DNA from: Alphaproteobacteria bacterium
GTDB lineage: Bacteria > Pseudomonadota > Alphaproteobacteria > Caulobacterales > Caulobacteraceae
Direction: 5' to 3'
DNA length: 64,000 nt
Assembly: GCA_018821435.1 (NCBI GenBank)
Contig: JAHJME010000035.1
Location: forward strand, 9,514-73,513
This document shows, piece after piece, positions 28,317 to 41,968 of this stretch (its first letter is position 1; each line of letters starts with the position of its first letter). Under the pieces are notes generated by a model that saw only the letters and a program-made list of their open reading frames with translations, was not told the origin of the DNA and searched no databases. The translations under genes were made by a program, and so were the position numbers.

Positions 28317-29150
28317 CTACGCCAGCGGCAGCCAGACCTCGAAGCCGCCGGCGCCCGATACGTGGTCGAAGCGTTCCGGGTAGCGCTCGAAGAACGGCGC
28401 GTCGGCCAGCTTGACGCCTGCGTTCGGCGCCCACTCGCCCCAGATGGTCCGCCACACCGAGCGGATTTCCGAGATGTGGCCGGGGTGATCCCAGACGATG
28501 TAGCGCCGGGCGGGCACCCGCAGGCGGCTGAGCTCGTCCGGCAGGGCGGCGAAGCTCGAGACCTCGACGGCGGCCAAGTAGTCGGTCGTGCGCTCGTCGT
28601 CGCCGTTCCAGACGACGCCATACGCGACGCGGCCGTTCGTCTGGCCGGGCACGTTGTCGATCCAGGGGGTGAACCGCTGCCACTGGTTCGGCACGCCGGC
28701 CATGACGCCGTCGTAGTAGTGCTCGGCCAGGCCGGCCAGCAGCAGCTGCGGGCCGTCCACCTGGCGCGGCGGGGCGAGGTTCAGGATGCGGGTTTCGTCC
28801 AACTTGATGGGCTCCACGAGCGCGAGTTTGCCGATGCAACCTTGGCCGCGCACCTGCTCGGGGGTGACCCCGAACTGCTCGCGAAAGGCGCGGGTGAACG
28901 CTTCGTGGGAGCCGTAGCCGGCTTCCAGGGCCACCGTCAGGATATCGGGCGCGCCGCCCGCCAGACCGCGCGCGGCCTCCGAGAGGCGACGGGCCCGGAC
29001 ATAGCGCATGACGGACCGGCCGGTGATCTGGCCGAAGGCGCGGACCATGTGGTGGCGCGACAGGCCTGCGACCTCGGCCACGTCCTCGAGGGCGAAATCC
29101 TCGCCGAGGTGGCCTTCCACGAACCAGATCGCCTTCTGTACGGAGTCCAT
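28317..29150 (-). CDS. AraC family regulator with GyrI-like effector domain (start probably ATG 29150)
   Basis: N-terminal double HTH (LEDVAEVAGLS...VALEAGYGSHEAFTRAF) and C-terminal GyrI-like region (APFFERY...FEVWLP). Confidence 0.88.
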   Translation of the reverse strand: MDSVQKAIWFVEGHLGEDFALEDVAEVAGLSRHHMVRAFGQITGRSVMRYVRARRLSEAARGLAGGAPDILTVALEAGYGSHEAFTRAFREQFGVTPEQVRGQGCIGKLALVEPIKLDETRILNLAPPRQVDGPQLLLAGLAEHYYDGVMAGVPNQWQRFTPWIDNVPGQTNGRVAYGVVWNGDDERTTDYLAAVEVSSFAALPDELSRLRVPARRYIVWDHPGHISEIRSVWRTIWGEWAPNAGVKLADAPFFERYPERFDHVSGAGGFEVWLPLA

Positions 29151-29271
29151 GTGCGAGCCCACGAAACGTAGGTCCTTCTGCGCCCCTGCAACCCTAGGCG
29201 CTTGATCGTGGTTGCGTTTGCAATGGTCGCTGAGCTTGCCTTTGCGCGCCAACGCGGCGAACCCTCCCGCC

Positions 29272-30153
29272 ATGGCCCGCGCCCTGCCCACACCTGTCCT
29301 CGACGACGCGCCGCTGGCGCCGGGGCTCTATGTCGTGGCCACGCCCATCGGCAACCTGCGCGACATCACGCTCCGCGCCCTCGACGTGCTGAACCAGGCC
29401 GACCTGATCCTGGCCGAGGACACGCGGGTCTCGGGCAAGCTGCTCGCGGCCTTCAAGATCAAGGGCAAGATGGAGCGGCACGACGAGCACGCCGCCGAGC
29501 GGGTCCGACCCCGGGTGATGGCCGCCCTGGCCGAAGGGCAGCGGGTGGCGATCATCTCCGACGCCGGCACGCCGCTGATCTCCGACCCCGGCTATCGGCT
29601 GGTGCGCGAGGCGGCCCAGGCCGGCCACAAGGTTTTCCCGATCCCCGGCGCGTCGGCGGTGCTGGCGGGGCTGTCGGCGGGCGGCCTGCCCACCGACCGT
29701 TTCCTTTTCGTGGGTTTCCCGCCGCCCAAGAGCGCCGCGCGGCGCACCTTCCTGGCCGAGTTCGCCGGCATTCGCGCCACCCTGGTGTTCTTCGAGGGCG
29801 GCTCGCGCCTGGCCGACAGCCTGGCCGACATGGCCGCTGTTCTGGGCGACCGCGAGGCGGTGGTCTGCCGCGAGCTGACCAAGCTTTACGAGACCTTCTA
29901 TCGCGGGCCGCTCAGCGTCCTGGCCGCCGATCCCAAGCTGGATGCGCCGAAGGGCGAGATCGTCATCCTGGTCGCGCCGGGCCGCGAGACCGAGGCGACG
30001 GCCGCCGACGCCGATACCGCCCTGCTGGACGCCCTGTCCCGCCTGAAGCCCGCCGACGCGGCGGCCGAGGTGGCCAAGGCCCTGGGGCTGTCGCGCCGCG
30101 ACCTCTACCGCCGGGCGATGGAGCTGCGCCAGGACGGGGAGCCGAGGCGTTGA
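29272..30153 (+). CDS. rsmI: 16S rRNA C1402 2'-O-methyltransferase RsmI
   Basis: LYVVATPIGNLRDITLRA, AEDTR, ISDAGTPLISDPG, CRELTKLYE. Confidence 0.95.
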   Translation: MARALPTPVLDDAPLAPGLYVVATPIGNLRDITLRALDVLNQADLILAEDTRVSGKLLAAFKIKGKMERHDEHAAERVRPRVMAALAEGQRVAIISDAGTPLISDPGYRLVREAAQAGHKVFPIPGASAVLAGLSAGGLPTDRFLFVGFPPPKSAARRTFLAEFAGIRATLVFFEGGSRLADSLADMAAVLGDREAVVCRELTKLYETFYRGPLSVLAADPKLDAPKGEIVILVAPGRETEATAADADTALLDALSRLKPADAAAEVAKALGLSRRDLYRRAMELRQDGEPRR

Positions 30154-30521
30154 ATTCCCGTACGGCCCGCGGCGCCCAGGCGCGCCTCTCCGGCCGCCGC
30201 GCCGAGGCCTGGGCCGCCGCCTGGCTGATGGCCAAGGGCTACCGTATCCTGGGGTTCCGGCTGAAGACGCCCCAGGCCGAGATCGACCTGCTGGCCAAGC
30301 GCGGCGACGTGCTGGCGGTGGTCGAGGTGAAGCGCCGGACGACCCTGGAGGTGGCGCTGGAGACCGTCACCTTCGACCAGCGCGACCGCCTGCGTCGCGC
30401 TGGCGCCGCGCTTGCAGCGAACCGGCCAGGCCTTTCGAGGTGTGCCGTCCGGCTGGATCTGCTGGCCCTCGCGCCCGGACGGCTTCCTAGGCATATTCCC
30501 GACGCCTGGAAGGGCGGTTGA
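30150..30521 (+). CDS. yraN: YraN family (UPF0102) nuclease-fold protein, TTG start
   Basis: GRRAEAWAAAWL..KGYRIL, EIDLLAKRG..LAVVEVK, RLDLL; overlaps rsmI stop. Confidence 0.88.
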   Translation: MNSRTARGAQARLSGRRAEAWAAAWLMAKGYRILGFRLKTPQAEIDLLAKRGDVLAVVEVKRRTTLEVALETVTFDQRDRLRRAGAALAANRPGLSRCAVRLDLLALAPGRLPRHIPDAWKGG

Positions 30522-30528
30522 GGCACGG

Positions 30529-31344
30529 ATGGACCGCGACGAAGCCGAAAGCATCCTCTCGGAAGCGGGGGGCGTTCCCGAAGGCGACTTCCCGTTGCTG
30601 GAGGCCGCCATCGCCTGCGCGATCCATGAGGACCCGGCCCGCGATCCCGGCTCGGCCCGCGAGGTCGCCGCCATCGCCGTGGACCGCCTGTCAGAGCGGC
30701 TGAAGCGCGAGAGCCCGGAGGAGGCGCTGGCCGAGACCATGGCCGGCGACCTGGGCCTGTCCGGCGACCTGTTCACCGTGGAAGACCCCGAGAACGCCGA
30801 CGTCATCTCGGTGGCGGGGCGACGCAAGGGCCTGGCCGTCACCGTGGGCCTGTTCTACCTGCACGCCGCGCGCCGCTGCGGCCTGACCCTCAAGGGCGTC
30901 GACTTCCCCGGCCATTTCCTGCTGCGGATCGAGACCGACGAGGGCCCGCTGGCGCTGGACCCGTTCTCGGAGGGCCGCGTGGTGCTGCCGTCCGAATTGA
31001 CCCGGCGCGCCCTGCACGCGGGCCTGACCCCCAACGTCGCCGACCGCCTGGACCGGCTGATGGCGCCGGTCAGCGACCGGGCCGTGCTGCTGCGGCTGCA
31101 GAACATCGTCTACGCCAACGCCACGGCGTACGGCGACTTCGCCCGCGCCGAGCGCGCCGCCCTGCGCCGCGCCCTGCTGGATCCCACCGACCACCGCCCC
31201 TGGCTGGACGTCGCCGCCGCCCGCGAGGGCCAGGGCGCCCTGGCCGGCGCGCTGGAGGCCCTGCAGCGCGCCACCGCCCTGGACGGCGGCGCCGCCCTCG
31301 CGGCCCGCGCCCAGCGCGAACGGGTCAGGTTGCGCCTCAACTAG
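30529..31344 (+). CDS. SirB1 / transglutaminase-like protein with C-terminal TPR-like helices
   Basis: RRKGLAV...GVDFPGHFLLR...LDPF motif. Confidence 0.8.
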   Translation: MDRDEAESILSEAGGVPEGDFPLLEAAIACAIHEDPARDPGSAREVAAIAVDRLSERLKRESPEEALAETMAGDLGLSGDLFTVEDPENADVISVAGRRKGLAVTVGLFYLHAARRCGLTLKGVDFPGHFLLRIETDEGPLALDPFSEGRVVLPSELTRRALHAGLTPNVADRLDRLMAPVSDRAVLLRLQNIVYANATAYGDFARAERAALRRALLDPTDHRPWLDVAAAREGQGALAGALEALQRATALDGGAALAARAQRERVRLRLN

Positions 31345-31432: not shown

Positions 31433-32863
31433 ATGGTCTTCAGTTCGATCATCTTCATCTTCTACTTCCTGCCGATTTTCCTGCTCGGCTACTACCTCTC
31501 GGGCTGGCGCCCGGCCGTGCTGCTGGCCGGCAGCGTCGCCTTCTACGTCTGGGGCGAAGGTCCCTACATCTTCCTGCTGGCCGCCCTGATCGCGGCGAAC
31601 TACGCGGGCTCCCGCGTGCTGGCCGGCGCGGAAAGTCAGGGGCGACGGCGGGCGATCCTCACCGGCCTGATCGTCCTCGACCTGGGGGTGCTGGGGGTCT
31701 TCAAGTACGCGGGCTTCCTGGCGCACAACCTGAACGCCCTGGGCCTGCATCTGCCCGAGCTGAAGCTGGCCCTGCCGCTGGGCATCTCGTTCTTCACCTT
31801 CCAGCTCATCAGCTATGTGGCCGACGTCTACTGGCGACGCGTCGCGGTCGAGCCCAGCCTGACCCGCTTCGCCGCCTACATCCTGATGTTCCCGCACCTG
31901 ATCGCCGGGCCGATCGTGCGCTTCGCCAACATCGCCGAGGAGCTGCACGCAGACCGCCGCAAGAGCGGCCGGATCGGCCTGGGCTTCCAGTATTTCATCG
32001 TCGGCCTCTGCCAGAAGGTGCTGGTGGCCAACAGCGTGGCGCCCCTGGCCGACCATGCGTTCGGCCTGGGCGGGGCGCTGGATCAGGCGACGGCGTGGCT
32101 GGGCGCCCTGGCCTATGCGCTGCAGATCTACTTCGACTTCTGCGGCTACTCGAACATGGCGATCGGCCTGGCCTTCATGCTGGGCTTCACCTTCCCGAAG
32201 AACTTCGACCACCCCTATGCCTCGCGCTCGATCACAGAGTTCTGGCGGCGATGGCACATCTCGCTGTCGTCGTGGTTCCGCGACTACGTCTACATCCCGC
32301 TGGGCGGCAACCGGGCGGGGTCGGCCAAGACGGTGCGCAATCTGCTGGTCGTGTTCCTGCTGACCGGCGTCTGGCACGGCGCGGCTTGGACGTTCGTGGT
32401 CTGGGGCCTCTACCACGGCGCCTTCCTGCTGATCGAACGCTTCGGCCTGGCCCGCCTGCTGGCGCTGGCGCCGCGGTTCGTGGGCCACGCCTACGCGCTG
32501 CTGGTGGTGCTGGTCGGCTGGGTGCTGTTCCGGGCCGACACCCTGCCCCACGCGCTGGACTACCTGGCGGTGATGGCGAACCCGGCGACGGCCGCCGCCC
32601 CGCCCATCTCCACGCGCATCCTGCTGAACGCCCAGACCCTGGCGGCCCTGGCCGCCGGCATGGTCTTCGCCGTCCCGACCCTGCCGTGGTTGCTGGAGCG
32701 CCTGCGCACGCCTCGGCTGGCGCCGGCCCACACCCTGGAGGCGCGGCTGGACACCCAGGGCGTCCACGTCCTGGCCACCGCGGCGCTGATCCTGGGCCTG
32801 CTGCTCAGCATCGCCCTCCTGGCGGGCACGACCCTCAACCCCTTCCTGTACTTCCGGTTCTGA
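31433..32863 (+). CDS. MBOAT family O-acyltransferase (AlgI/DltB-like)
   Basis: MVFSS..F...FLP, LPLGISFFTFQ.ISY, NF..PYASRSITEFWRRWHISLSSWFRDYVYIPLGG, catalytic WHGA. Confidence 0.93.
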   Translation: MVFSSIIFIFYFLPIFLLGYYLSGWRPAVLLAGSVAFYVWGEGPYIFLLAALIAANYAGSRVLAGAESQGRRRAILTGLIVLDLGVLGVFKYAGFLAHNLNALGLHLPELKLALPLGISFFTFQLISYVADVYWRRVAVEPSLTRFAAYILMFPHLIAGPIVRFANIAEELHADRRKSGRIGLGFQYFIVGLCQKVLVANSVAPLADHAFGLGGALDQATAWLGALAYALQIYFDFCGYSNMAIGLAFMLGFTFPKNFDHPYASRSITEFWRRWHISLSSWFRDYVYIPLGGNRAGSAKTVRNLLVVFLLTGVWHGAAWTFVVWGLYHGAFLLIERFGLARLLALAPRFVGHAYALLVVLVGWVLFRADTLPHALDYLAVMANPATAAAPPISTRILLNAQTLAALAAGMVFAVPTLPWLLERLRTPRLAPAHTLEARLDTQGVHVLATAALILGLLLSIALLAGTTLNPFLYFRF

Positions 32864-34512
32864 TGACCGATCCCCTGCGCGCACATTGGGGACGGCTGAT
32901 CGGCGCCACGCTGGTGGTGATCGCGGGCGCGTTCGTGCTGCCGCACGTCGTCCCCGTCCCGACCCTGCTGGAGAACCGCCGCCTGGCCGAGGCGCCGGCC
33001 TTGCCCGCCGACCTGAGCGGGCTCACCGCCTACCGCAGGGCGACCGACGCCTATGTGGCCGACCATTTCCCGCCCCGCACCCACCTGATCGGCGCGCTGA
33101 ACACCCTGCGCCTGTGGCTCGGCGTCAGCGGGTCGTCCCGGGTGATCGTCGGCCACGACAGCTGGCTGTTCAGCGACAACGGCTCACATCTCAGCGCGGC
33201 GCGCGGCGACCCGGCGATGTCCAACGCCGAGGCCCGCGCATGGCTGGGCGGCCTGGCCAGCCGGACCGAGGCGCTCAAGGCCGAAGGCCGCACCTATGTC
33301 GTCCTGGTGGCCCCGGTGAAGGAGACGGTCTACCCCGGCGCCGCGCCCGACTGGTTCGCGCTGGATTTCAACCGCCGCGCCGCGATGCTGAACCGCCTGG
33401 CCGCGGCCTCCGGCGCCGGCGACCTGATCTATCCGCAGGAAGCTCTGGCTCAGCAGGCCCGGTGGGGCCTGCGCGTCTACGACCGCTATGACAGCCACTG
33501 GAGCGGCCTGGGCGCCTATCAGGCCTATGTGGCCCTCATGCGCCGGCTGGAGCGGCAGGGCGTGACCGAAGGTCCGCGGCCGCTGGAAAGCTTCGCCGAA
33601 CGCACCGACATGCCCGACAGCGCCAAGGCCCACGACCTGGCGCTAATGCTGGGCGCGGGCAGCTTCGTGAAGGTGCGGTTCCCCGAGTTCACCGACCCGG
33701 CGGCGGTGGAGCGACTGCGCATCGCCTACCTGGACCCCGCCCGGCGCGACTGGACGGGACTGCGGGTGATCGACACCGGCCAGACGGGCAAGCCGGTCCT
33801 GCTGATCACGGTGGATTCGTTTTCCAATGCGCTACTGCCGTTCCTTTACGGCCACTTCAGCCGCATCGTGACGGCCCACAACGACCAGGGGGTCTGGCGC
33901 CGCGACCTGATCGACCGGTTCCAGCCGGACGTGGTGGCCATCGAGACGCTGGAGAACGGCGCGGCGCTGATCATGGGCGACACGGCGGCGCCATCGGCCG
34001 ACGCCCGGGCCCGGATCGCCCGGGCCGTGGCCCGCCGACGGGCCTATGCGGTGGTTCCACCCCACGACGTGTACGGCGGGGAGCGCCGGATGGTCGAGGG
34101 CGGCGAGGGCGACGACAAGCTCAAGGGCTCGCGCCGGGCGGACGACATCCAGGGGCGGCCCGGGAACGACAGCATCTCCGGGCTGGGCGGCGACGATATC
34201 CTGCGGGGCGGCCGCGGCCGCGACACCCTGGATGGCGGGCCCGGAAACGACTGGCTGTCCGGCGGGCGCGACGCCGACATCCTGCGGGGTGGGCCGGGCG
34301 CCGACGTCTTCAACAGCTTCGAAGAGGCGGGCGTCGATCAGGTCATGGACTTCAACGCCGCCGACGGCGACCGCGTCGAGATCGCGGCGGGCGCGGCCTA
34401 CACGGTGCGCCAAGTGGGGCCGGACGTGGTGGTCACGCTGCGGGACGCCAGCCTGATCCTGCGCGGCGTCGCGCTGATCGACCTGCCGAACGGCTGGATC
34501 CGAAACAAATAG
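32863..34512 (+). CDS. AlgJ/AlgX-like SGNH O-acetyltransferase with N-terminal TM anchor, fused to C-terminal RTX (hemolysin-type Ca-binding) repeats
   Basis: ATG overlaps the MBOAT stop (TGATG). [26 protein letters not shown] (DxH) and VDSFS (Ser) motifs, then seven GGxGxD-type nonapeptides at 34099-34314. Confidence 0.85.
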
Positions 34513-34576: not shown

Positions 34577-35524
34577 ATGTCTCTGAAGGTCGCTGTCCAG
34601 ATGGACCCTATCGAGGGGATCAACATCGAGGGCGACACCACCTTCCTGATGATGGAGACGGCCCAGGCGCGCGGCCATTCCCTGTTCGTCTACACCACCA
34701 ACACCCTGGCCATGGACGAGGGCCGGGTGTTCGCCACCGGCCGCGACGTGGCGGTCCAGCGGGTGAAGGGCGACCACGCCACCCTGAGCGAGCCGCGCCG
34801 GGTGGAGCTGACCGAGTTCGACGTCATCCTGCTGCGCCAGGATCCGCCGTTCGACATGCACTACATCGACACCACCTTCTTCCTAGAGGTCGTGCACCCG
34901 AAGACCCTGGTGGTGAACAATCCGGTCGAGGTGCGCAACGCGCCCGAGAAGCTGTTCGTCACCAAGTTCCCGGGCCTGCAGCCGCCCACCCTGATCACCT
35001 GGGACAAGGCCGAGATCCTGGATTTCCGCGCACGTCACGGCGACTTGGTGATGAAGCCGCTGAACGGCCGGGGCGGCTCGGGTGTCACCCGCCACCTCAA
35101 GGACGACCCCAACCTGGACACCCTGCTGGAGCTGCACGCCGAGCTGGGCCGCGAGCCGGTGATCGTGCAGAAGTTCCTGCCCTCGGTGACCAAGGGCGAC
35201 AAGCGCATCCTGCTGATCGACGGCGAGCCGGTGGGCGCCATCAACCGCGTGCCGGCCAAGGGCCAGATCCGGTCCAACCTCGCCGTGGGCGGCGAGGCTC
35301 AGCCGGTGGAGCTGACCGCCCGCGACCGCGAGATCTGCGCCGCCATCGGGCCGGAGCTGAAGGCGCGCGGCCTGATCTTCGTCGGCATCGACGTGATCGG
35401 CGAGTGGCTCACCGAGATCAACGTGACCTCGCCCACCGGCGCCGTGGCGCTGAAGCGTTTCACCGGAATCGACGCCACCGAGGTGATGTGGCAACGGATT
35501 GAGGCACTTCGGGCCCAGGCTTAG
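34577..35524 (+). CDS. gshB: Glutathione synthetase
   Basis: [45 protein letters not shown]. Confidence 0.96.
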
Positions 35525-40621: not shown

Positions 40622-41968
40622 ATGTCCGAAAAGCCCGCGGCCAAGCGCAAGCGCACCGCCATGGATGTGGTTCGCTCGCTGCGTCAGCCCAAGGTCGCGG
40701 TGATGCTGGCGCTGGGCTTCAGTTCGGGCCTGCCGTTCCTGCTGACCGCCGGCACGTTCGGCTACTGGCTGCGCGACGAAGGCACGACCCTCAAGGCCAT
40801 CGGCTTCATCTCCTGGGTCGGGATGGCCTATGTCCTGAAGCCCATCTGGGCGCCGATCGTCGATCGCGTGGACGTGCCGATCTTCGGGCGCCTCGGACGC
40901 CGGCGCGGCTGGATGCTGCTGTCGCAGCTGGTCGTCGCCTTCGGGCTGATCGCGATGGCCGTGTCAGGCCCCGCCGATCTCACCAAGATCGGCGCGTTCG
41001 CCCTGCTGGTCGCCCTGGCCTCCGCCACCCAGGACATCGTCGTGGACGCCTGGCGGATCGAGGCCTCGTCCGATCCCGAGGAGATCGGCCTCCTCGCCTC
41101 GGCCTACTCCATGGGCTACCGCGTCGCCATCATCGTCGCCGACGCGGCCATCATCGCCTATGCCGCGCATCTCGGCTGGCCCCAGTCCTATGTCGCGATG
41201 GCGGTGCTGATGGGGATCGGCGTGGCCGCCAGCTTCTTCGCCATGGAACCGGCGAAGGCCGACGCCGTGATGCAGGCGAAGGCGCCGCTGTGGACGCCGC
41301 GCGGCTTCTTCGACGCGGTGGTCGGCCCGTTCATCGACTTCTTCGCCACCCACAAGACGCTGGGCTTCCTGATGCTGGCGGCCATCGCGGCCTACCGGCT
41401 GCCCGACTACCTGATGGGGCCGATGTACAACCCCTACTACCACGATCTGGGCCTGACGAAGGACACGGTGGCGGTGGTTCGGGCCGCCACCGGCCTGCCC
41501 GGCGCCTTCATCGGCATCGCCGTCTCGGGGCTGTGCGCGGTGCGGTTCGGCCTCTTCCCGACCCTGATCGTCGGCTCGGTGTTGCAGGGCGTGGGCACGG
41601 CGGCCTTCGCCCTTCTGACCCTGTCGCACGACATACCGATCTTCACGGCGGTGATGGCGCTGGACAACTTCGCCCAGGCCTTCGCCGGCGTGGCCCTGGT
41701 GGCCTACATGTCCAGTCTCACCGGGCTGGGCTACACGGCCACCCAGTACGCCCTGCTGTCCTCGACCTATGCCTTCCTTGGCAAGTTCCTGAAGGGCTTC
41801 TCCGGCGCGGCGGTCGACGGCCTCGCCCAGACCCAGGGGCTGATGGGCGCCTACGCCACCTCCTGGATCGTCACCGGCCTGACGGCGATCCCGCCGATCC
41901 TGCTGTTCCTGCTGTTGGCCCGCTATCAGCGCCGCCGCGACGAGGCCGCGGCAACGGTCGCGGATTAG
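40622..41968 (+). CDS. ampG: AmpG-like muropeptide MFS transporter
   Basis: LGFSSGLPFLL, KPIWAPIVDR, GRRRGWMLLSQ, SATQDIVVDAWRIE, TATQYALLSS. Confidence 0.85.
   Translation: MSEKPAAKRKRTAMDVVRSLRQPKVAVMLALGFSSGLPFLLTAGTFGYWLRDEGTTLKAIGFISWVGMAYVLKPIWAPIVDRVDVPIFGRLGRRRGWMLLSQLVVAFGLIAMAVSGPADLTKIGAFALLVALASATQDIVVDAWRIEASSDPEEIGLLASAYSMGYRVAIIVADAAIIAYAAHLGWPQSYVAMAVLMGIGVAASFFAMEPAKADAVMQAKAPLWTPRGFFDAVVGPFIDFFATHKTLGFLMLAAIAAYRLPDYLMGPMYNPYYHDLGLTKDTVAVVRAATGLPGAFIGIAVSGLCAVRFGLFPTLIVGSVLQGVGTAAFALLTLSHDIPIFTAVMALDNFAQAFAGVALVAYMSSLTGLGYTATQYALLSSTYAFLGKFLKGFSGAAVDGLAQTQGLMGAYATSWIVTGLTAIPPILLFLLLARYQRRRDEAAATVAD

What the first reader, a model, noticed from the sequence alone, without database searches (positions are those of the whole stretch)
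31433..34512. AlgI-AlgJ type O-acetylation pair in which AlgJ is fused to RTX calcium-binding repeats
Seen: translationally coupled MBOAT and SGNH-like genes with intact DxH and Ser motifs. The second carries an N-terminal TM anchor and seven GGxGxD nonapeptides plus a typical post-RTX tail. No polysaccharide synthase or AlgF-like gene is in the window; the pair is inserted between yraN/sirB1 and gshB. Established: AlgI/AlgJ-like pairs O-acetylate exopolysaccharides in the periplasm, whereas RTX repeats normally mark type I-secreted proteins such as the Caulobacter S-layer protein RsaA. Inference: the mix of an inner-membrane anchor and RTX is paradoxical. It suggests a Ca-gated periplasmic acetyltransferase, or a secreted enzyme modifying O-antigen, holdfast or S-layer-associated glycan.
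Basis: partly seen in the sequence, partly recalled or inferred. Interest (0 to 1): 0.7.

Follow-up and report, generated by a model that had tools for sequence, protein, structure and literature searches.

The report
Membrane acetyltransferase pair carrying captured RTX domain
This is a real, conserved two-gene cassette for acetylating a cell-envelope sugar polymer, in which the periplasmic enzyme has swapped its usual C-terminal beta-sandwich domain for a calcium-binding RTX module copied from secreted proteins; that is an unusual but lineage-restricted variant of a known enzyme system.

Summary
An MBOAT gene (31433-32863) overlaps by one base (TGATG) an AlgJ/AlgX-type SGNH gene (32863-34512). 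The second gene encodes an N-terminal membrane helix, intact P-x-K / D-x-H-W / Ser motifs, eight nonapeptides in perfect 9-residue register (four canonical GGxGxD) and a post-RTX cap.

The fusion is not an artefact. The identical protein lies on 8 contigs from at least 3 samples, and more than 120 protein clusters share the architecture, all from Phenylobacterium-like genomes.

New findings:
- The MBOAT ends in FLYFRF, the FXYXXF acyl-shuttle motif. The pair therefore fits the PatAB-type relay: acetyl-CoA to MBOAT Tyr to SGNH Ser to glycan.
- The RTX-plus-cap module is 45-49% identical to the C-termini of at least six type-I-secretion-type proteins in the same genome, and it was captured once.
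- It replaced an ancestral Cys-bearing Ig-like beta-sandwich, which sister clades keep at the same position.
- The cassette is accessory: about 46% of genus genomes carry it. It sits in four unrelated housekeeping contexts, never beside a glycan synthase. Genomes without it show an empty site between sirB1 and gshB.

Best reading: a Sec-exported, inner-membrane-anchored periplasmic acetyltransferase whose beta-roll is an accessory domain and not a secretion signal. The target glycan is unknown. This is a new variant of a known kind and of moderate interest.

The parts
31433..32863 (+). MBOAT (AlgI/PatA-like) acyltransferase gene, 476 aa
   Evidence: Pfam MBOAT 9.8e-32. Matches DltB structures 6bug and 8jem at 6e-33. 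Homologues are 60-91% identical in 60 related loci.
32255..32257 (+). Codon of the predicted catalytic His275 (in RWHIS)
   Evidence: It lies inside the matched MBOAT core region (residues 140-340). Its role is inferred from PatA His315 in PMC12148441.
32843..32860 (+). C-terminal acyl-shuttle hexapeptide F471-L-Y473-F-R-F476 (FXYXXF)
   Evidence: All 60 MBOAT homologues in the fetched loci end in FLYFRF followed by the stop codon. The motif and its acetyl-Tyr role are described in PMC12148441.
32861..32865 (+). TGATG stop/start overlap (translational coupling)
   Evidence: Sequence read directly. The same TGATG junction occurs in many related loci.
32863..34512 (+). AlgJ/AlgX-type SGNH acyltransferase fused to an RTX beta-roll, 549 aa
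   Evidence: Pfam ALGX plus HemolysinCabind. AF2 model with pLDDT 92. More than 120 homologous clusters share the architecture.
32875..32952 (+). N-terminal signal-anchor / transmembrane helix (residues ~5-30)
   Evidence: Kyte-Doolittle mean 2.28 over residues 12-30. The segment is conserved in 93 of 100 homologues. Modelled as a helix at residues 5-29.
33013..33117 (+). Two helices after the TM helix (residues 51-67 and 72-85), a likely membrane-peripheral 'Y' region as in PatB
   Evidence: Secondary structure of the AF2 model. The comparison with the PatAB model description in PMC12148441 is an inference.
33133..33987 (+). Circularly permuted SGNH catalytic domain (residues ~91-375)
   Evidence: Foldseek matches: PatB1 5v8d at 1.1e-9, DHHW protein 4nzk, AlgJ 4o8v at 7e-9, and AlgX 4knc/7ula. 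Sequence match to AlgJ 4o8v at 1.4e-5.
33313..33321 (+). P151-V-K153 AlgJ signature motif
   Evidence: K153 invariant, P151 conserved in at least 90%. The equivalent PaAlgJ residues P135/K137 are given in PMC4148444.
33490..33501 (+). D210-S-H212-W213 (the DxHW catalytic Asp/His block)
   Evidence: H212 and W213 are invariant and D210 is conserved in at least 90% of 100 sequences. This corresponds to the AlgJ D-x-H-W block.
33817..33819 (+). Codon of the predicted nucleophile Ser319 (in VDSFS)
   Evidence: D318 and S319 are invariant in 100 sequences. The position corresponds to the AlgJ GTSYS serine.
33988..34092 (+). Variable linker (residues 376-410)
   Evidence: This is the least conserved region (mean column conservation 0.42 against 0.66-0.70 for the domains) and has the lowest pLDDT in the model.
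34099..34314 (+). Eight RTX nonapeptides (residues 413-484), a Ca-binding beta-roll
   Evidence: The Ca-ligand Asp and Gly residues are invariant (D436, D445, G450, D454, G461, D463, G476, D481).
34315..34509 (+). Post-RTX C-terminal cap (residues 485-549), homologous to T1SS-type tails but ending in ...GWIRNK
   Evidence: The C-terminal 144 aa (RTX plus cap) is 45-49% identical to the tails of six paralogous proteins in the same genome. Fold matches CyaA block V with its cap. The AlgJ-type tails form one clade with 96/96 support.
30529..31344 (+). Upstream flank: sirB1-like gene (Transglut_core2/TPR), part of the conserved backbone and not of the cassette
   Evidence: In genomes that lack the cassette it directly abuts gshB.
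34577..35524 (+). Downstream flank: gshB (glutathione synthetase), part of the conserved backbone

Best explanation
The locus is a self-contained two-gene MBOAT-SGNH O-acyltransferase cassette, most likely an O-acetyltransferase.

Proposed relay. The MBOAT takes the acyl group from cytoplasmic acyl-CoA using His275. It loads the group onto Tyr473 of its own C-terminal FLYFRF shuttle peptide at the periplasmic face. It then hands it to Ser319 of the partner enzyme (Ser319/His212/Asp210 triad), which transfers it to a hydroxyl of an envelope glycan. This mechanism is inferred from the motifs and from PatAB.

Topology. The partner is exported by Sec and stays tethered to the inner membrane next to the MBOAT through its N-terminal helix. 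This is inferred.

Origin of the C-terminal module. The C-terminal 140 residues, an eight-repeat RTX beta-roll plus cap, were captured once from a type-I-secreted protein of the same lineage. They replaced an ancestral Ig-like, two-Cys beta-sandwich at the same position. This is shown by sequence homology and by trees.

Role of the RTX module. In this setting I infer that the module folds with periplasmic Ca2+ and acts as an accessory domain that binds or positions the substrate. Analogues would be the C-terminal CBM of AlgX or the alginate-binding R-modules of AlgE epimerases. I do not think it works as a secretion signal.

Target. The target glycan is not identified. Alginate and cellulose machinery are absent. 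Because the cassette is always 'orphan', the target is probably a polymer made elsewhere in the genome, such as peptidoglycan, LPS/O-antigen or another envelope polysaccharide.
For: Domains and motifs.

Shuttle motif: FXYXXF is invariant in 60 of 60 MBOAT homologues. The mechanism is described in PMC12148441.

Fold: the SGNH fold matches PatB1, AlgJ and AlgX, and the RTX part matches CyaA block V and the AlgE R-modules. The AF2 model has pLDDT 92, with a TM helix followed by two helices, as described for PatB.

N-terminus: the hydrophobic segment is kept in 93 of 100 homologues. T1SS-type paralogues have no such N-terminus.

Origin of the tail: it is homologous to the tails of at least six T1SS-type proteins in the same genome. 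The AlgJ-type tails are monophyletic (96/96) on a long stem.

Replacement: on the SGNH tree the RTX forms fall in one clade of 24, nested among forms carrying the Cys domain. The Lysobacteraceae outgroup also carries the Cys domain.

Selection: RTX and cap are as conserved as the catalytic domain (0.67 and 0.66 against 0.70), while the linker scores 0.42.

Divergence from secretion-type tails: the AlgJ-type tails have about 14 basic residues against 5.6, and end in IRNK/R or carry variable extensions instead of WIFGA.

Precedent: the AlgE4 R-module binds its polysaccharide (PMC4619708).

Copy number: usually one copy per genome.

Context: none of the four contexts contains a synthase. There is no BcsB, and the only Alginate_exp porin is an orphan.
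Against: - No experiment exists for any family member. Localisation, Ca dependence, donor and acceptor are all inferred.
- The N-terminal segment could be a cleavable signal peptide (consensus AAA|F) and not an anchor.
- The cap still resembles functional T1SS tails, and a bona fide PrtD-type T1SS exists in the genome, so secretion is not excluded.
- The clade that unites all RTX forms has only moderate support (80/76).
- The ancestral Cys domain has no demonstrable carbohydrate-binding homologue: only generic Ig-like hits were found. 'Substrate-binding' is therefore an analogy and not a result.
- The inter-domain geometry of the model could not be inspected, because neither coordinates nor PAE were available.
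Confidence: 0.6

Rival explanations
1. The protein is a genuine type-I-secreted or surface-exposed enzyme. Its C-terminal RTX-plus-tail is recognised by the genome's PrtD-type T1SS, and the SGNH domain acts outside the cell (as an esterase or transacetylase) on O-antigen, S-layer-associated glycan or EPS. A variant is that the protein spans the envelope, with the N-terminus held in the inner membrane.
For: The tail is 45-49% identical to the tails of T1SS-type proteins such as a serralysin-like protease. The genome has a T1SS ABC transporter scoring over the curated cut-off. Polysaccharide-modifying RTX enzymes secreted by T1SS are known, for example the AlgE epimerases.
Against: - A conserved N-terminal hydrophobic helix (93 of 100) would direct co-translational Sec insertion. 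The T1SS-type paralogues lack it.
- The enzyme is strictly coupled to an inner-membrane MBOAT whose FLYFRF tyrosine must reach Ser319.
- The extreme C-terminus has diverged (IRNK/R, or 8-9 residue extensions) from the WIFGA of the paralogues.
- Sister clades carry a two-Cys Ig-like domain in the same slot.
- The cassette is not linked to T1SS genes.
Confidence: 0.1
2. The RTX module is a periplasmic Ca2+ switch. Below a threshold Ca2+ concentration the beta-roll is disordered and the enzyme is inactive or degraded, so glycan acetylation is gated by environmental calcium. It is compatible with the topology of the best explanation but assigns the module a regulatory role and not a binding role.
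For: The Ca-ligand Asp and Gly residues are invariant across 100 homologues. RTX blocks with a C-cap undergo Ca-induced disorder-to-order folding (PMC6891781). The fold matches CyaA block V.
Against: Nothing in the sequence distinguishes a switch from a constitutively folded domain. The ancestral domain at this position is a disulfide-type beta-sandwich with no Ca motif, which argues for a structural or binding role that either fold can supply.
Confidence: 0.15
3. The RTX module is a neutral passenger or mere spacer left by an illegitimate recombination with a T1SS-type protein gene, and has no specific function. The cassette works as a plain AlgI/AlgJ- or PatA1/B1-like pair.
For: Three lineages inside the RTX clade have lost the C-terminal domain altogether and keep an ORF of about 385-417 aa (L051, L062, L066). 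So the catalytic part can persist without it.
Against: RTX and cap are as conserved as the catalytic domain over sequences down to about 48% identity, while the linker is not. The Ca ligands are invariant. The module is retained in more than 120 clusters. The long stem with systematic substitutions (Arg enrichment) suggests adaptation after capture.
Confidence: 0.1

Closest known systems
PatA/PatB peptidoglycan O-acetyltransferase pair of Gram-negative bacteria (Neisseria, Campylobacter; PMC12148441)
   Same: A two-gene MBOAT plus SGNH module. The MBOAT ends in the FXYXXF acyl-shuttle motif. The SGNH partner has an N-terminal TM helix followed by two helices. No AlgF-like third protein is present. 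The pair is not embedded in a polymer-synthesis operon.
   Different: PatB is a canonical-order SGNH enzyme with the Ser first. Here the domain is the circularly permuted AlgJ/AlgX/DHHW type. No ape1-like esterase gene is adjacent. PatB has no C-terminal accessory domain. The substrate here is unknown.
AlgI/AlgJ/AlgF/AlgX alginate O-acetylation system of Pseudomonas (PMC4148444)
   Same: The Pfam ALGX domain. The P-x-K, D-x-H-W and Ser signature residues. An N-terminally anchored periplasmic AlgJ-like enzyme beside an MBOAT. The layout of an SGNH domain followed by a C-terminal accessory module mirrors AlgX (SGNH plus CBM).
   Different: No alginate operon is present. No AlgF was found (weak control). 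There is only an orphan Alginate_exp porin. Sequence identity to AlgJ is low (E 1.4e-5). The accessory module is an RTX beta-roll and not a CBM.
Bacillus cereus PatA1/PatB1 secondary-cell-wall-polysaccharide O-acetyltransferase (PDB 5V8D/5V8E)
   Same: It is the best structural match to the catalytic domain (Foldseek E 1.1e-9, TM 0.69 on the target). It is also a two-protein MBOAT plus DHHW/AlgX-like module acting on a wall-associated glycan.
   Different: It belongs to a Gram-positive envelope. Identity is only 12-13%. It has no RTX module.
AlgE1-7 mannuronan C-5 epimerases of Azotobacter (R-modules; PDB 2AGM, 2ML1-3)
   Same: A polysaccharide-modifying catalytic domain followed by an RTX beta-roll module. 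The R-modules match the RTX part by sequence and by fold. The AlgE4 R-module binds the polymer.
   Different: The AlgE enzymes are T1SS-secreted, lack an N-terminal anchor and act outside the cell. Their catalytic domain is a beta-helix epimerase and not an SGNH transferase.
T1SS-type RTX proteins of the same genome (serralysin-like protease on contig C22, metzincin on C8, beta-helix protein on C10, and others)
   Same: The C-terminal 135-140 residues (RTX repeats plus cap) are 45-49% identical and align end to end.
   Different: Those proteins have no N-terminal hydrophobic segment, end in ...GWIFGA, and have about 5-6 basic residues in the tail. The AlgJ fusion has about 14 basic residues and ends in ...GWIRNK.

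Membership tests
Bacterial MBOAT-SGNH envelope-polymer O-acyltransferase pairs (PatAB / AlgIJ / WssHI / PatA1B1 type) | MBOAT membrane protein with a conserved catalytic His | tested here: met
   Pfam MBOAT 9.8e-32. DltB structures match at 6e-33. His275 lies in RWHIS.
Bacterial MBOAT-SGNH envelope-polymer O-acyltransferase pairs (PatAB / AlgIJ / WssHI / PatA1B1 type) | C-terminal FXYXXF acyl-shuttle hexapeptide on the MBOAT | tested here: met
   The protein ends in FLYFRF, and so do all 60 homologues in the fetched loci. The motif is defined in PMC12148441.
Bacterial MBOAT-SGNH envelope-polymer O-acyltransferase pairs (PatAB / AlgIJ / WssHI / PatA1B1 type) | Adjacent, co-oriented SGNH-fold partner with a Ser/His/Asp triad and an N-terminal membrane helix | tested here: met
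   TGATG overlap. S319, H212 and D210 are conserved. A helix is modelled at residues 5-29. The hydrophobic segment is kept in 93 of 100 homologues.
Bacterial MBOAT-SGNH envelope-polymer O-acyltransferase pairs (PatAB / AlgIJ / WssHI / PatA1B1 type) | Acyl transfer from acyl-CoA through acyl-Tyr and acyl-Ser to a glycan | not testable with these tools
   This needs biochemistry.
AlgJ/AlgX (Pfam ALGX, PF16822) circularly permuted SGNH acetyltransferases | Profile match above the curated threshold | tested here: met
   56.6 bits against a cut-off of 26.5.
AlgJ/AlgX (Pfam ALGX, PF16822) circularly permuted SGNH acetyltransferases | Signature residues P-x-K and D-x-H-W upstream of the catalytic Ser (permuted order) | tested here: met
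   P151/K153, D210/H212/W213 and S319 are present. The definition comes from PMC4148444.
AlgJ/AlgX (Pfam ALGX, PF16822) circularly permuted SGNH acetyltransferases | Fold similarity to solved AlgJ/AlgX/PatB1 structures | tested here: met
   Foldseek matches: 5v8d at 1.1e-9, 4o8v at 7e-9, 7ula at 1.1e-5 and 4knc at 4.6e-5.
Alginate O-acetylation system AlgIJFX | AlgF-like periplasmic partner | tested here: inconclusive
   No PF11182 match in the genome, but the control genomes were also silent. None is present within +/-10 kb.
Alginate O-acetylation system AlgIJFX | Location within, or co-occurrence with, an alginate synthesis/export operon | tested here: not met
   The flanks are housekeeping genes. 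The only Alginate_exp porin, at C16:354606, is not in an alginate operon.
Cellulose acetylation system WssFGHI | Bcs cellulose synthase present | tested here: not met
   No BcsB (PF03170) in the genome. The controls did respond.
Type I secretion RTX proteins (T1SS cargo) | Tandem GGxGxD nonapeptides followed by a C-terminal cap/signal region | tested here: met
Type I secretion RTX proteins (T1SS cargo) | No N-terminal Sec signal or membrane anchor | tested here: not met
   A hydrophobic 19-mer (Kyte-Doolittle mean 2.28) is conserved in 93 of 100 homologues. The paralogous T1SS-type proteins lack it.
Type I secretion RTX proteins (T1SS cargo) | Extreme C-terminus like that of the co-resident T1SS-type proteins | tested here: not met
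   The fusion ends in IRNK/IRNR or in variable extensions, against W-I-F-G-A in the paralogues.
Type I secretion RTX proteins (T1SS cargo) | Export by an ABC/MFP/OMF system | not testable with these tools
   A PrtD-type ABC transporter exists at C26:33067-34671, unlinked to the cassette. Secretion itself needs an experiment.
AlgE-type polysaccharide-binding R-modules | RTX beta-roll module resembling the R-modules | tested here: met
   Sequence matches to 2ml3, 2ml2, 2ml1 and 2agm at 7.6e-7 to 2.6e-5. Foldseek matches at 3e-5 to 5e-4. Other RTX domains, such as CyaA block V, match better.
AlgE-type polysaccharide-binding R-modules | Binds the polymer substrate | not testable with these tools
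   Analogy only (PMC4619708).

The most novel reading that the evidence does not exclude
The captured RTX-plus-cap is still a working T1SS signal, so the enzyme is handled by two export routes at once. The N-terminus would be inserted by Sec beside the MBOAT, and the C-terminal beta-roll would be threaded or ratcheted outward through a T1SS/TolC-like duct. The result would be a trans-envelope tether that places an acyl-relay enzyme at the route of an exported glycan. Alternatively, a pool of the enzyme would be released to remodel surface glycan. Either case would be an unprecedented Sec/T1SS hybrid topology.
Probability: 0.06. Interest if true: 0.85.

Novelty: new variant of a known kind. Interest (0 to 1): 0.45.

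Why it matters
MBOAT-SGNH pairs are the general route by which bacteria acylate envelope polymers, including peptidoglycan, alginate, cellulose, teichoic acids and secondary wall polysaccharides.

This family shows that the accessory C-terminal domain of the SGNH partner is an exchangeable slot: it can be empty, hold an Ig-like sandwich, hold an SLH domain in distant relatives, or hold an RTX beta-roll. It also documents a clean, datable case in which a T1SS-type cassette was moved into a Sec-exported, membrane-anchored periplasmic enzyme and then kept under selection.

That makes two questions testable:
- Can RTX beta-rolls have periplasmic functions unrelated to secretion?
- What do the accessory domains of AlgX-like transferases contribute?

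The presence/absence polymorphism of the cassette in about half of the genus also gives natural controls for finding the unknown acetylated glycan. The practical impact is modest until the substrate is known.

Tried and rejected
1. Assembly artefact: rejected. The identical protein lies on 8 contigs from at least 3 samples, and more than 120 clusters share the fusion.

2. Alginate or cellulose as the target: rejected as unlikely. There is no BcsB, no AlgF (weak control), and only an orphan Alginate_exp porin with unrelated neighbours.

3. Finding the substrate from gene neighbourhood: this led nowhere. The four contexts are all housekeeping or unrelated genes:
   - the window and Group A;
   - Group B (TonB receptor, PepSY_TM, histidine kinase);
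   - Group C1 (DUF418, LytTR, gltBD);
   - Group C2 (YGGT, ammonium transporter, metallophosphoesterase).

4. First family-level genome search with the full protein: RTX hits swamped it, so it seemed to show no orthologues. Repeating it with the SGNH part alone and then at genus level resolved this.

5. Identifying the ancestral Cys domain by fold: only generic Ig-like, FN3 or CBM21-like hits appeared, none convincing, and there was no Pfam family.

7. Promoter/terminator scan: nothing above the shuffled expectation.

8. Literature on AlgX/AlgJ plus RTX or Phenylobacterium: none found.

9. Earlier notes from this scan: nothing on this locus or on look-alikes.

10. MBOAT-SGNH complex model and inter-domain geometry: not possible.

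Full report
**1. What is in the sequence**

Two co-oriented ORFs fill 31433-34512.

The first ORF (31433-32863, 476 aa) is an MBOAT.
- Pfam scores it at 9.8e-32.
- Its closest solved relatives are DltB structures, at 6e-33.
- It carries the conserved His in RWH275IS.
- It ends exactly in F-L-Y-F-R-F.

The second ORF starts at the A of the MBOAT stop codon (TTC TGA / ATG ACC) and runs to 34512 (549 aa).
- Pfam finds ALGX (SGNH-like, 4e-15, residues 94-267), a weak DHHW match, and HemolysinCabind (3.2e-19, three stretches).
- Residues 413-484 are eight nonapeptides in perfect register. Four are canonical GGxGxD and four are degenerate.
- The N-terminus has a 19-residue hydrophobic stretch (residues 12-30, Kyte-Doolittle mean 2.28) preceded by Arg and His residues.
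- The AlgJ signature residues are all present: P151-x-K153, D210-x-H212-W213 and Ser319 in VDSFS (residue roles from PMC4148444).

**2. The fusion is real and conserved, but restricted to one lineage**

- The identical protein is encoded on 8 contigs from at least three samples.
- A search of 5.8 billion proteins returned at least 120 clusters with 48-86% identity. All are about 530-570 aa, all carry PF16822 plus PF00353, and every named one comes from Phenylobacterium or Caulobacterales.
- In an alignment of 100 members, the catalytic residues and the Ca-ligand Asp and Gly of the repeats are invariant.
- Mean column conservation is 0.70 for the SGNH domain, 0.67 for the RTX repeats, 0.66 for the cap and only 0.42 for the linker. 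The RTX module is thus under the same purifying selection as the enzyme.
- In a library of 1.84 billion representatives, only one of the 150 best SGNH-domain clusters carries RTX repeats.
- No paper mentions such an architecture.

**3. Structure**

An AF2 model built on the 100-sequence alignment is confident (pLDDT 92, pTM 0.74). In order, it shows:
- a long helix at residues 5-29;
- two helices at 51-67 and 72-85;
- an alpha/beta domain;
- a lower-confidence linker (376-410);
- a beta-roll with a strand every nine residues;
- a beta-rich cap.

Foldseek places the catalytic domain next to these structures:

| Structure | Protein | E-value |
|---|---|---|
| 5V8D | B. cereus PatB1 | 1.1e-9 |
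| 4NZK | DHHW protein | 1.1e-9 |
| 4O8V | AlgJ | 7e-9 |
| 7ULA / 4KNC | AlgX | 1.1e-5 / 4.6e-5 |

It places the C-terminal part next to CyaA RTX block V with its cap, to T1SS lipases and to the AlgE4/AlgE6 R-modules. Sequence searches give the same matches.

The arrangement of a TM helix followed by two helices matches the membrane-associating region described for PatB in the PatAB complex model (PMC12148441).

**4. Mechanism of the pair**

Work on PatAB shows three things:
- bacterial MBOATs that partner SGNH proteins carry a C-terminal FXYXXF motif;
- the MBOAT acetylates the Tyr of that motif from acetyl-CoA;
- the acetyl-Tyr peptide then donates to the SGNH serine, which acylates the polymer.

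Here the MBOAT and all 60 homologues in the related loci end in FLYFRF. I therefore infer this relay: acyl-CoA, then His275/Tyr473 of the MBOAT, then Ser319 (with His212 and Asp210) of the SGNH protein, then a glycan hydroxyl. The motif evidence is direct. The chemistry is inferred by homology.

This relay requires the SGNH domain to sit at the periplasmic face of the inner membrane, beside the MBOAT.

**5. Where the RTX module came from**

A tblastn search of the C-terminal 144 residues against the window's own genome finds six other loci that align over the full length at 45-49% identity. They belong to:
- a serralysin-like metalloprotease (HEIGHAIGMAHPGDY);
- a second metzincin;
- a right-handed beta-helix protein;
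- three smaller proteins.

None has an N-terminal hydrophobic segment. Five of the six end in ...GWIF(G/S)A-like residues and one in ...TWITVG. The genome also encodes a PrtD-type T1SS ABC transporter that scores above the curated cut-off, next to another RTX protein. The module is therefore the lineage's standard C-terminal cassette for type-I-secreted proteins.

In a tree of these tails, the 23 AlgJ-linked tails form one clade (96/96 support, found in 94% of bootstrap trees). The clade sits on a long stem (0.5 substitutions per site) rising from the unresolved set of T1SS-type tails. This points to one capture followed by divergence.

The divergence is systematic. The AlgJ-type tails have about 14 basic residues against about 5.6. 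They show TVRQ where the paralogues have TV(A/S)Q, and LRGV where the paralogues have LVGV. Their extreme C-terminus is IRNK/IRNR, or carries 8-9 residue extensions, in place of WIFGA.

**6. What the RTX module replaced**

A scan of one genome per species returned 66 related loci. They fall into three groups:
- loci where MBOAT-AlgJ carries RTX;
- about 35 loci where the same SGNH domain (45-54% identical) is followed by an unrelated ~130-residue domain;
- a few loci with no C-terminal domain (~385-417 aa).

The unrelated domain has two invariant Cys residues and the motif C-N-x-E ... GW ... RPDVAAYFK ... SGF ... YRR ... GWIxC. It has no Pfam match. It models confidently (pLDDT 90) as a seven-strand Ig-like beta-sandwich, but has no specific PDB relative. 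Two conserved cysteines suggest a disulfide-bonded domain outside the cytoplasm; this is an inference.

On the SGNH-domain tree, the Cys-domain forms are paraphyletic and include the Lysobacteraceae outgroup. All RTX forms fall in one clade of 24 (support 80/76), which also contains three secondary losses.

The parsimonious history is that an AlgX-like architecture (anchor, SGNH domain, beta-sandwich) was ancestral, and that one Phenylobacterium sublineage exchanged the beta-sandwich for the RTX cassette. More distant relatives carry other envelope-targeting C-terminal domains, for example SLH in P0226. Genomes nearly always hold a single copy, which fits the idea that the two forms are functional equivalents.

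**7. Genomic behaviour**

Within the GTDB genus, 81 of 197 species genomes have a homologue. Among high-quality genomes the figure is 66 of 143, or 46%. Outside the genus, the family sample holds only distant relatives of 35% identity or less.

Sixteen loci share the window's synteny: rdgB-hemW-rsmI-yraN-sirB1-[MBOAT-AlgJRTX]-gshB-comM. In these loci the identities to the window are:

| Genes | Identity to the window |
|---|---|
| gshB, comM, sirB1 and most other neighbours | 75-97% |
| hemW | 51-68% |
| AlgJ (SGNH) part | 55-66% |
| RTX part | 47-71% |

In nine of ten genus genomes that lack the cassette, sirB1 abuts gshB with a gap of only 61-493 bp. This is a clean presence/absence polymorphism.

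Other members sit in three further, unrelated contexts. None of the four contexts, nor the +/-10 kb around the window locus, holds a glycosyltransferase, a synthase, an exporter or an AlgF-like gene. The genome lacks BcsB and AlgF (with a silent control). It has only an isolated Alginate_exp-family porin among unrelated genes.

The cassette is therefore an autonomous, horizontally shuffled two-gene module. It acts on a polymer made elsewhere. That polymer is not alginate or cellulose.

**8. Interpretation**

Best-supported reading (confidence about 0.6): a Sec-exported, inner-membrane-tethered periplasmic O-acyltransferase working with its MBOAT. Its captured beta-roll plus cap folds with periplasmic Ca2+ and serves as an accessory domain. 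The most plausible accessory role is binding or positioning the substrate, by analogy with:
- the domain it replaced;
- the CBM of AlgX;
- the AlgE4 R-module, which binds its polysaccharide.

What is shown: the domain composition, the motifs, the fold, the homology of the tail to the T1SS-type cassette, the single origin, the replacement of the Cys domain, the conservation, the accessory distribution and the orphan context.

What is inferred: the topology, the acyl relay, Ca-dependent folding in the periplasm, the binding role and the non-use of T1SS.

Rivals:
- true T1SS secretion (about 0.1);
- a Ca2+ regulatory switch (about 0.15, compatible with the same topology);
- a functionless passenger (about 0.1, contradicted by the conservation).

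The substrate stays open. Peptidoglycan (by analogy with orphan PatAB pairs), LPS/O-antigen and another envelope polysaccharide are all possible.

**9. Comparison and novelty**

The cassette meets every testable defining feature of the bacterial MBOAT-SGNH acyltransferase pairs and of the AlgJ/AlgX (ALGX) SGNH family.
- It is not a member of the alginate or cellulose acetylation systems, because their context features are not met.
- It shares the RTX-plus-cap anatomy of type-I-secreted proteins, but it fails two of their features: it has an N-terminal anchor, and its extreme C-terminus has diverged.

It is best described as a new variant of a known kind. It is moderately interesting as a documented transfer of a T1SS-type cassette into a periplasmic enzyme, and as evidence that the C-terminal slot of AlgX-like transferases is modular. 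It is not a new system.

**10. Limits**

- No complex model or inter-domain geometry could be obtained.
- Only +/-10 kb of the window was annotated with Pfam, not the full 64 kb.

Noticed in passing
genome contigs C22:134445-136220(-), C8:116788-118737(+), C10:129300-130925(-), C37:5910-6875(-), C16:4095-5270(-), C41:206244-207017(+): Six proteins share one ~135-aa RTX-plus-cap C-terminal cassette, and five of them end in ...GWIF(G/S)A. They are a serralysin-like protease, a metzincin, a beta-helix/pectate-lyase-like protein and three small proteins. The same cassette occurs 6-21 times per genome in sister species. It looks like the genus-wide C-terminal cassette for type-I-secreted proteins.
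   Followed up: partly
genome contig C26:29619-34671(-): A PrtD-type T1SS ABC transporter (640 bits, above the curated cut-off) lies next to a 607-aa RTX-repeat protein with a different tail type (...RTLADISAANIV). This may be an S-layer-like protein with its own dedicated exporter.
   Followed up: no
L049:11189-11584 and ~35 other loci (e.g. L045-L083, L087): A ~130-aa two-Cys Ig-like beta-sandwich domain (motifs CNxE, GW, RPDVAAYFK, SGF, YRR, GWIxC) sits at the C-terminus of AlgJ-like enzymes. It has no Pfam family and no specific PDB relative. It is widespread among the 50%-identity cluster representatives.
   Followed up: partly
window 28317-29150 (-): An AraC/GyrI-like (Cass2) regulator gene sits between hemW and rsmI in this genome. 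It is absent from the syntenic loci of relatives, where hemW and rsmI are about 80 bp apart (e.g. L030). This is a second small indel in the same backbone.
   Followed up: no
window 29212-30521 (+): The public gene call on the matching record (L108:6361-7659) is one 432-aa 'UPF0102' ORF whose first ~300 residues are an Arg/Pro/Gly-rich out-of-frame reading across rsmI. The rsmI frame (29212-30153) is 76-92% conserved in relatives. rsmI therefore appears to be missed, and yraN over-extended, in that annotation.
   Followed up: partly
window ~40622-41968 (+): A 448-aa MFS transporter with Pfam Acatn (acetyl-CoA transporter / AmpG-like) hits lies about 6 kb downstream of the cassette. It is probably an AmpG-type muropeptide permease. 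No link to the cassette was established.
   Followed up: no
L049:7831-8514 (+) and equivalents in L045, L050, L055, L061, L063, L067: A conserved ~227-aa protein with no Pfam hit lies immediately upstream of the MBOAT (gap of about 30 bp) in the gltBD-context group. It could be a third component of the cassette in that clade. AlgF-like proteins are of similar size, but no homology was shown.
   Followed up: no
G299:C24:22676-23842: One genus genome carries two copies of the SGNH gene. One is RTX-clade-like at 60% identity. The second is 50% identical and is interrupted by an in-frame TAG, so it may be a decaying redundant copy.
   Followed up: no
L098:1007-1501: In one genome that lacks the cassette, the sirB1-gshB gap is 493 bp, against about 60-80 bp in most of the others. 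It might hold a remnant of the cassette or another small insert.
   Followed up: no
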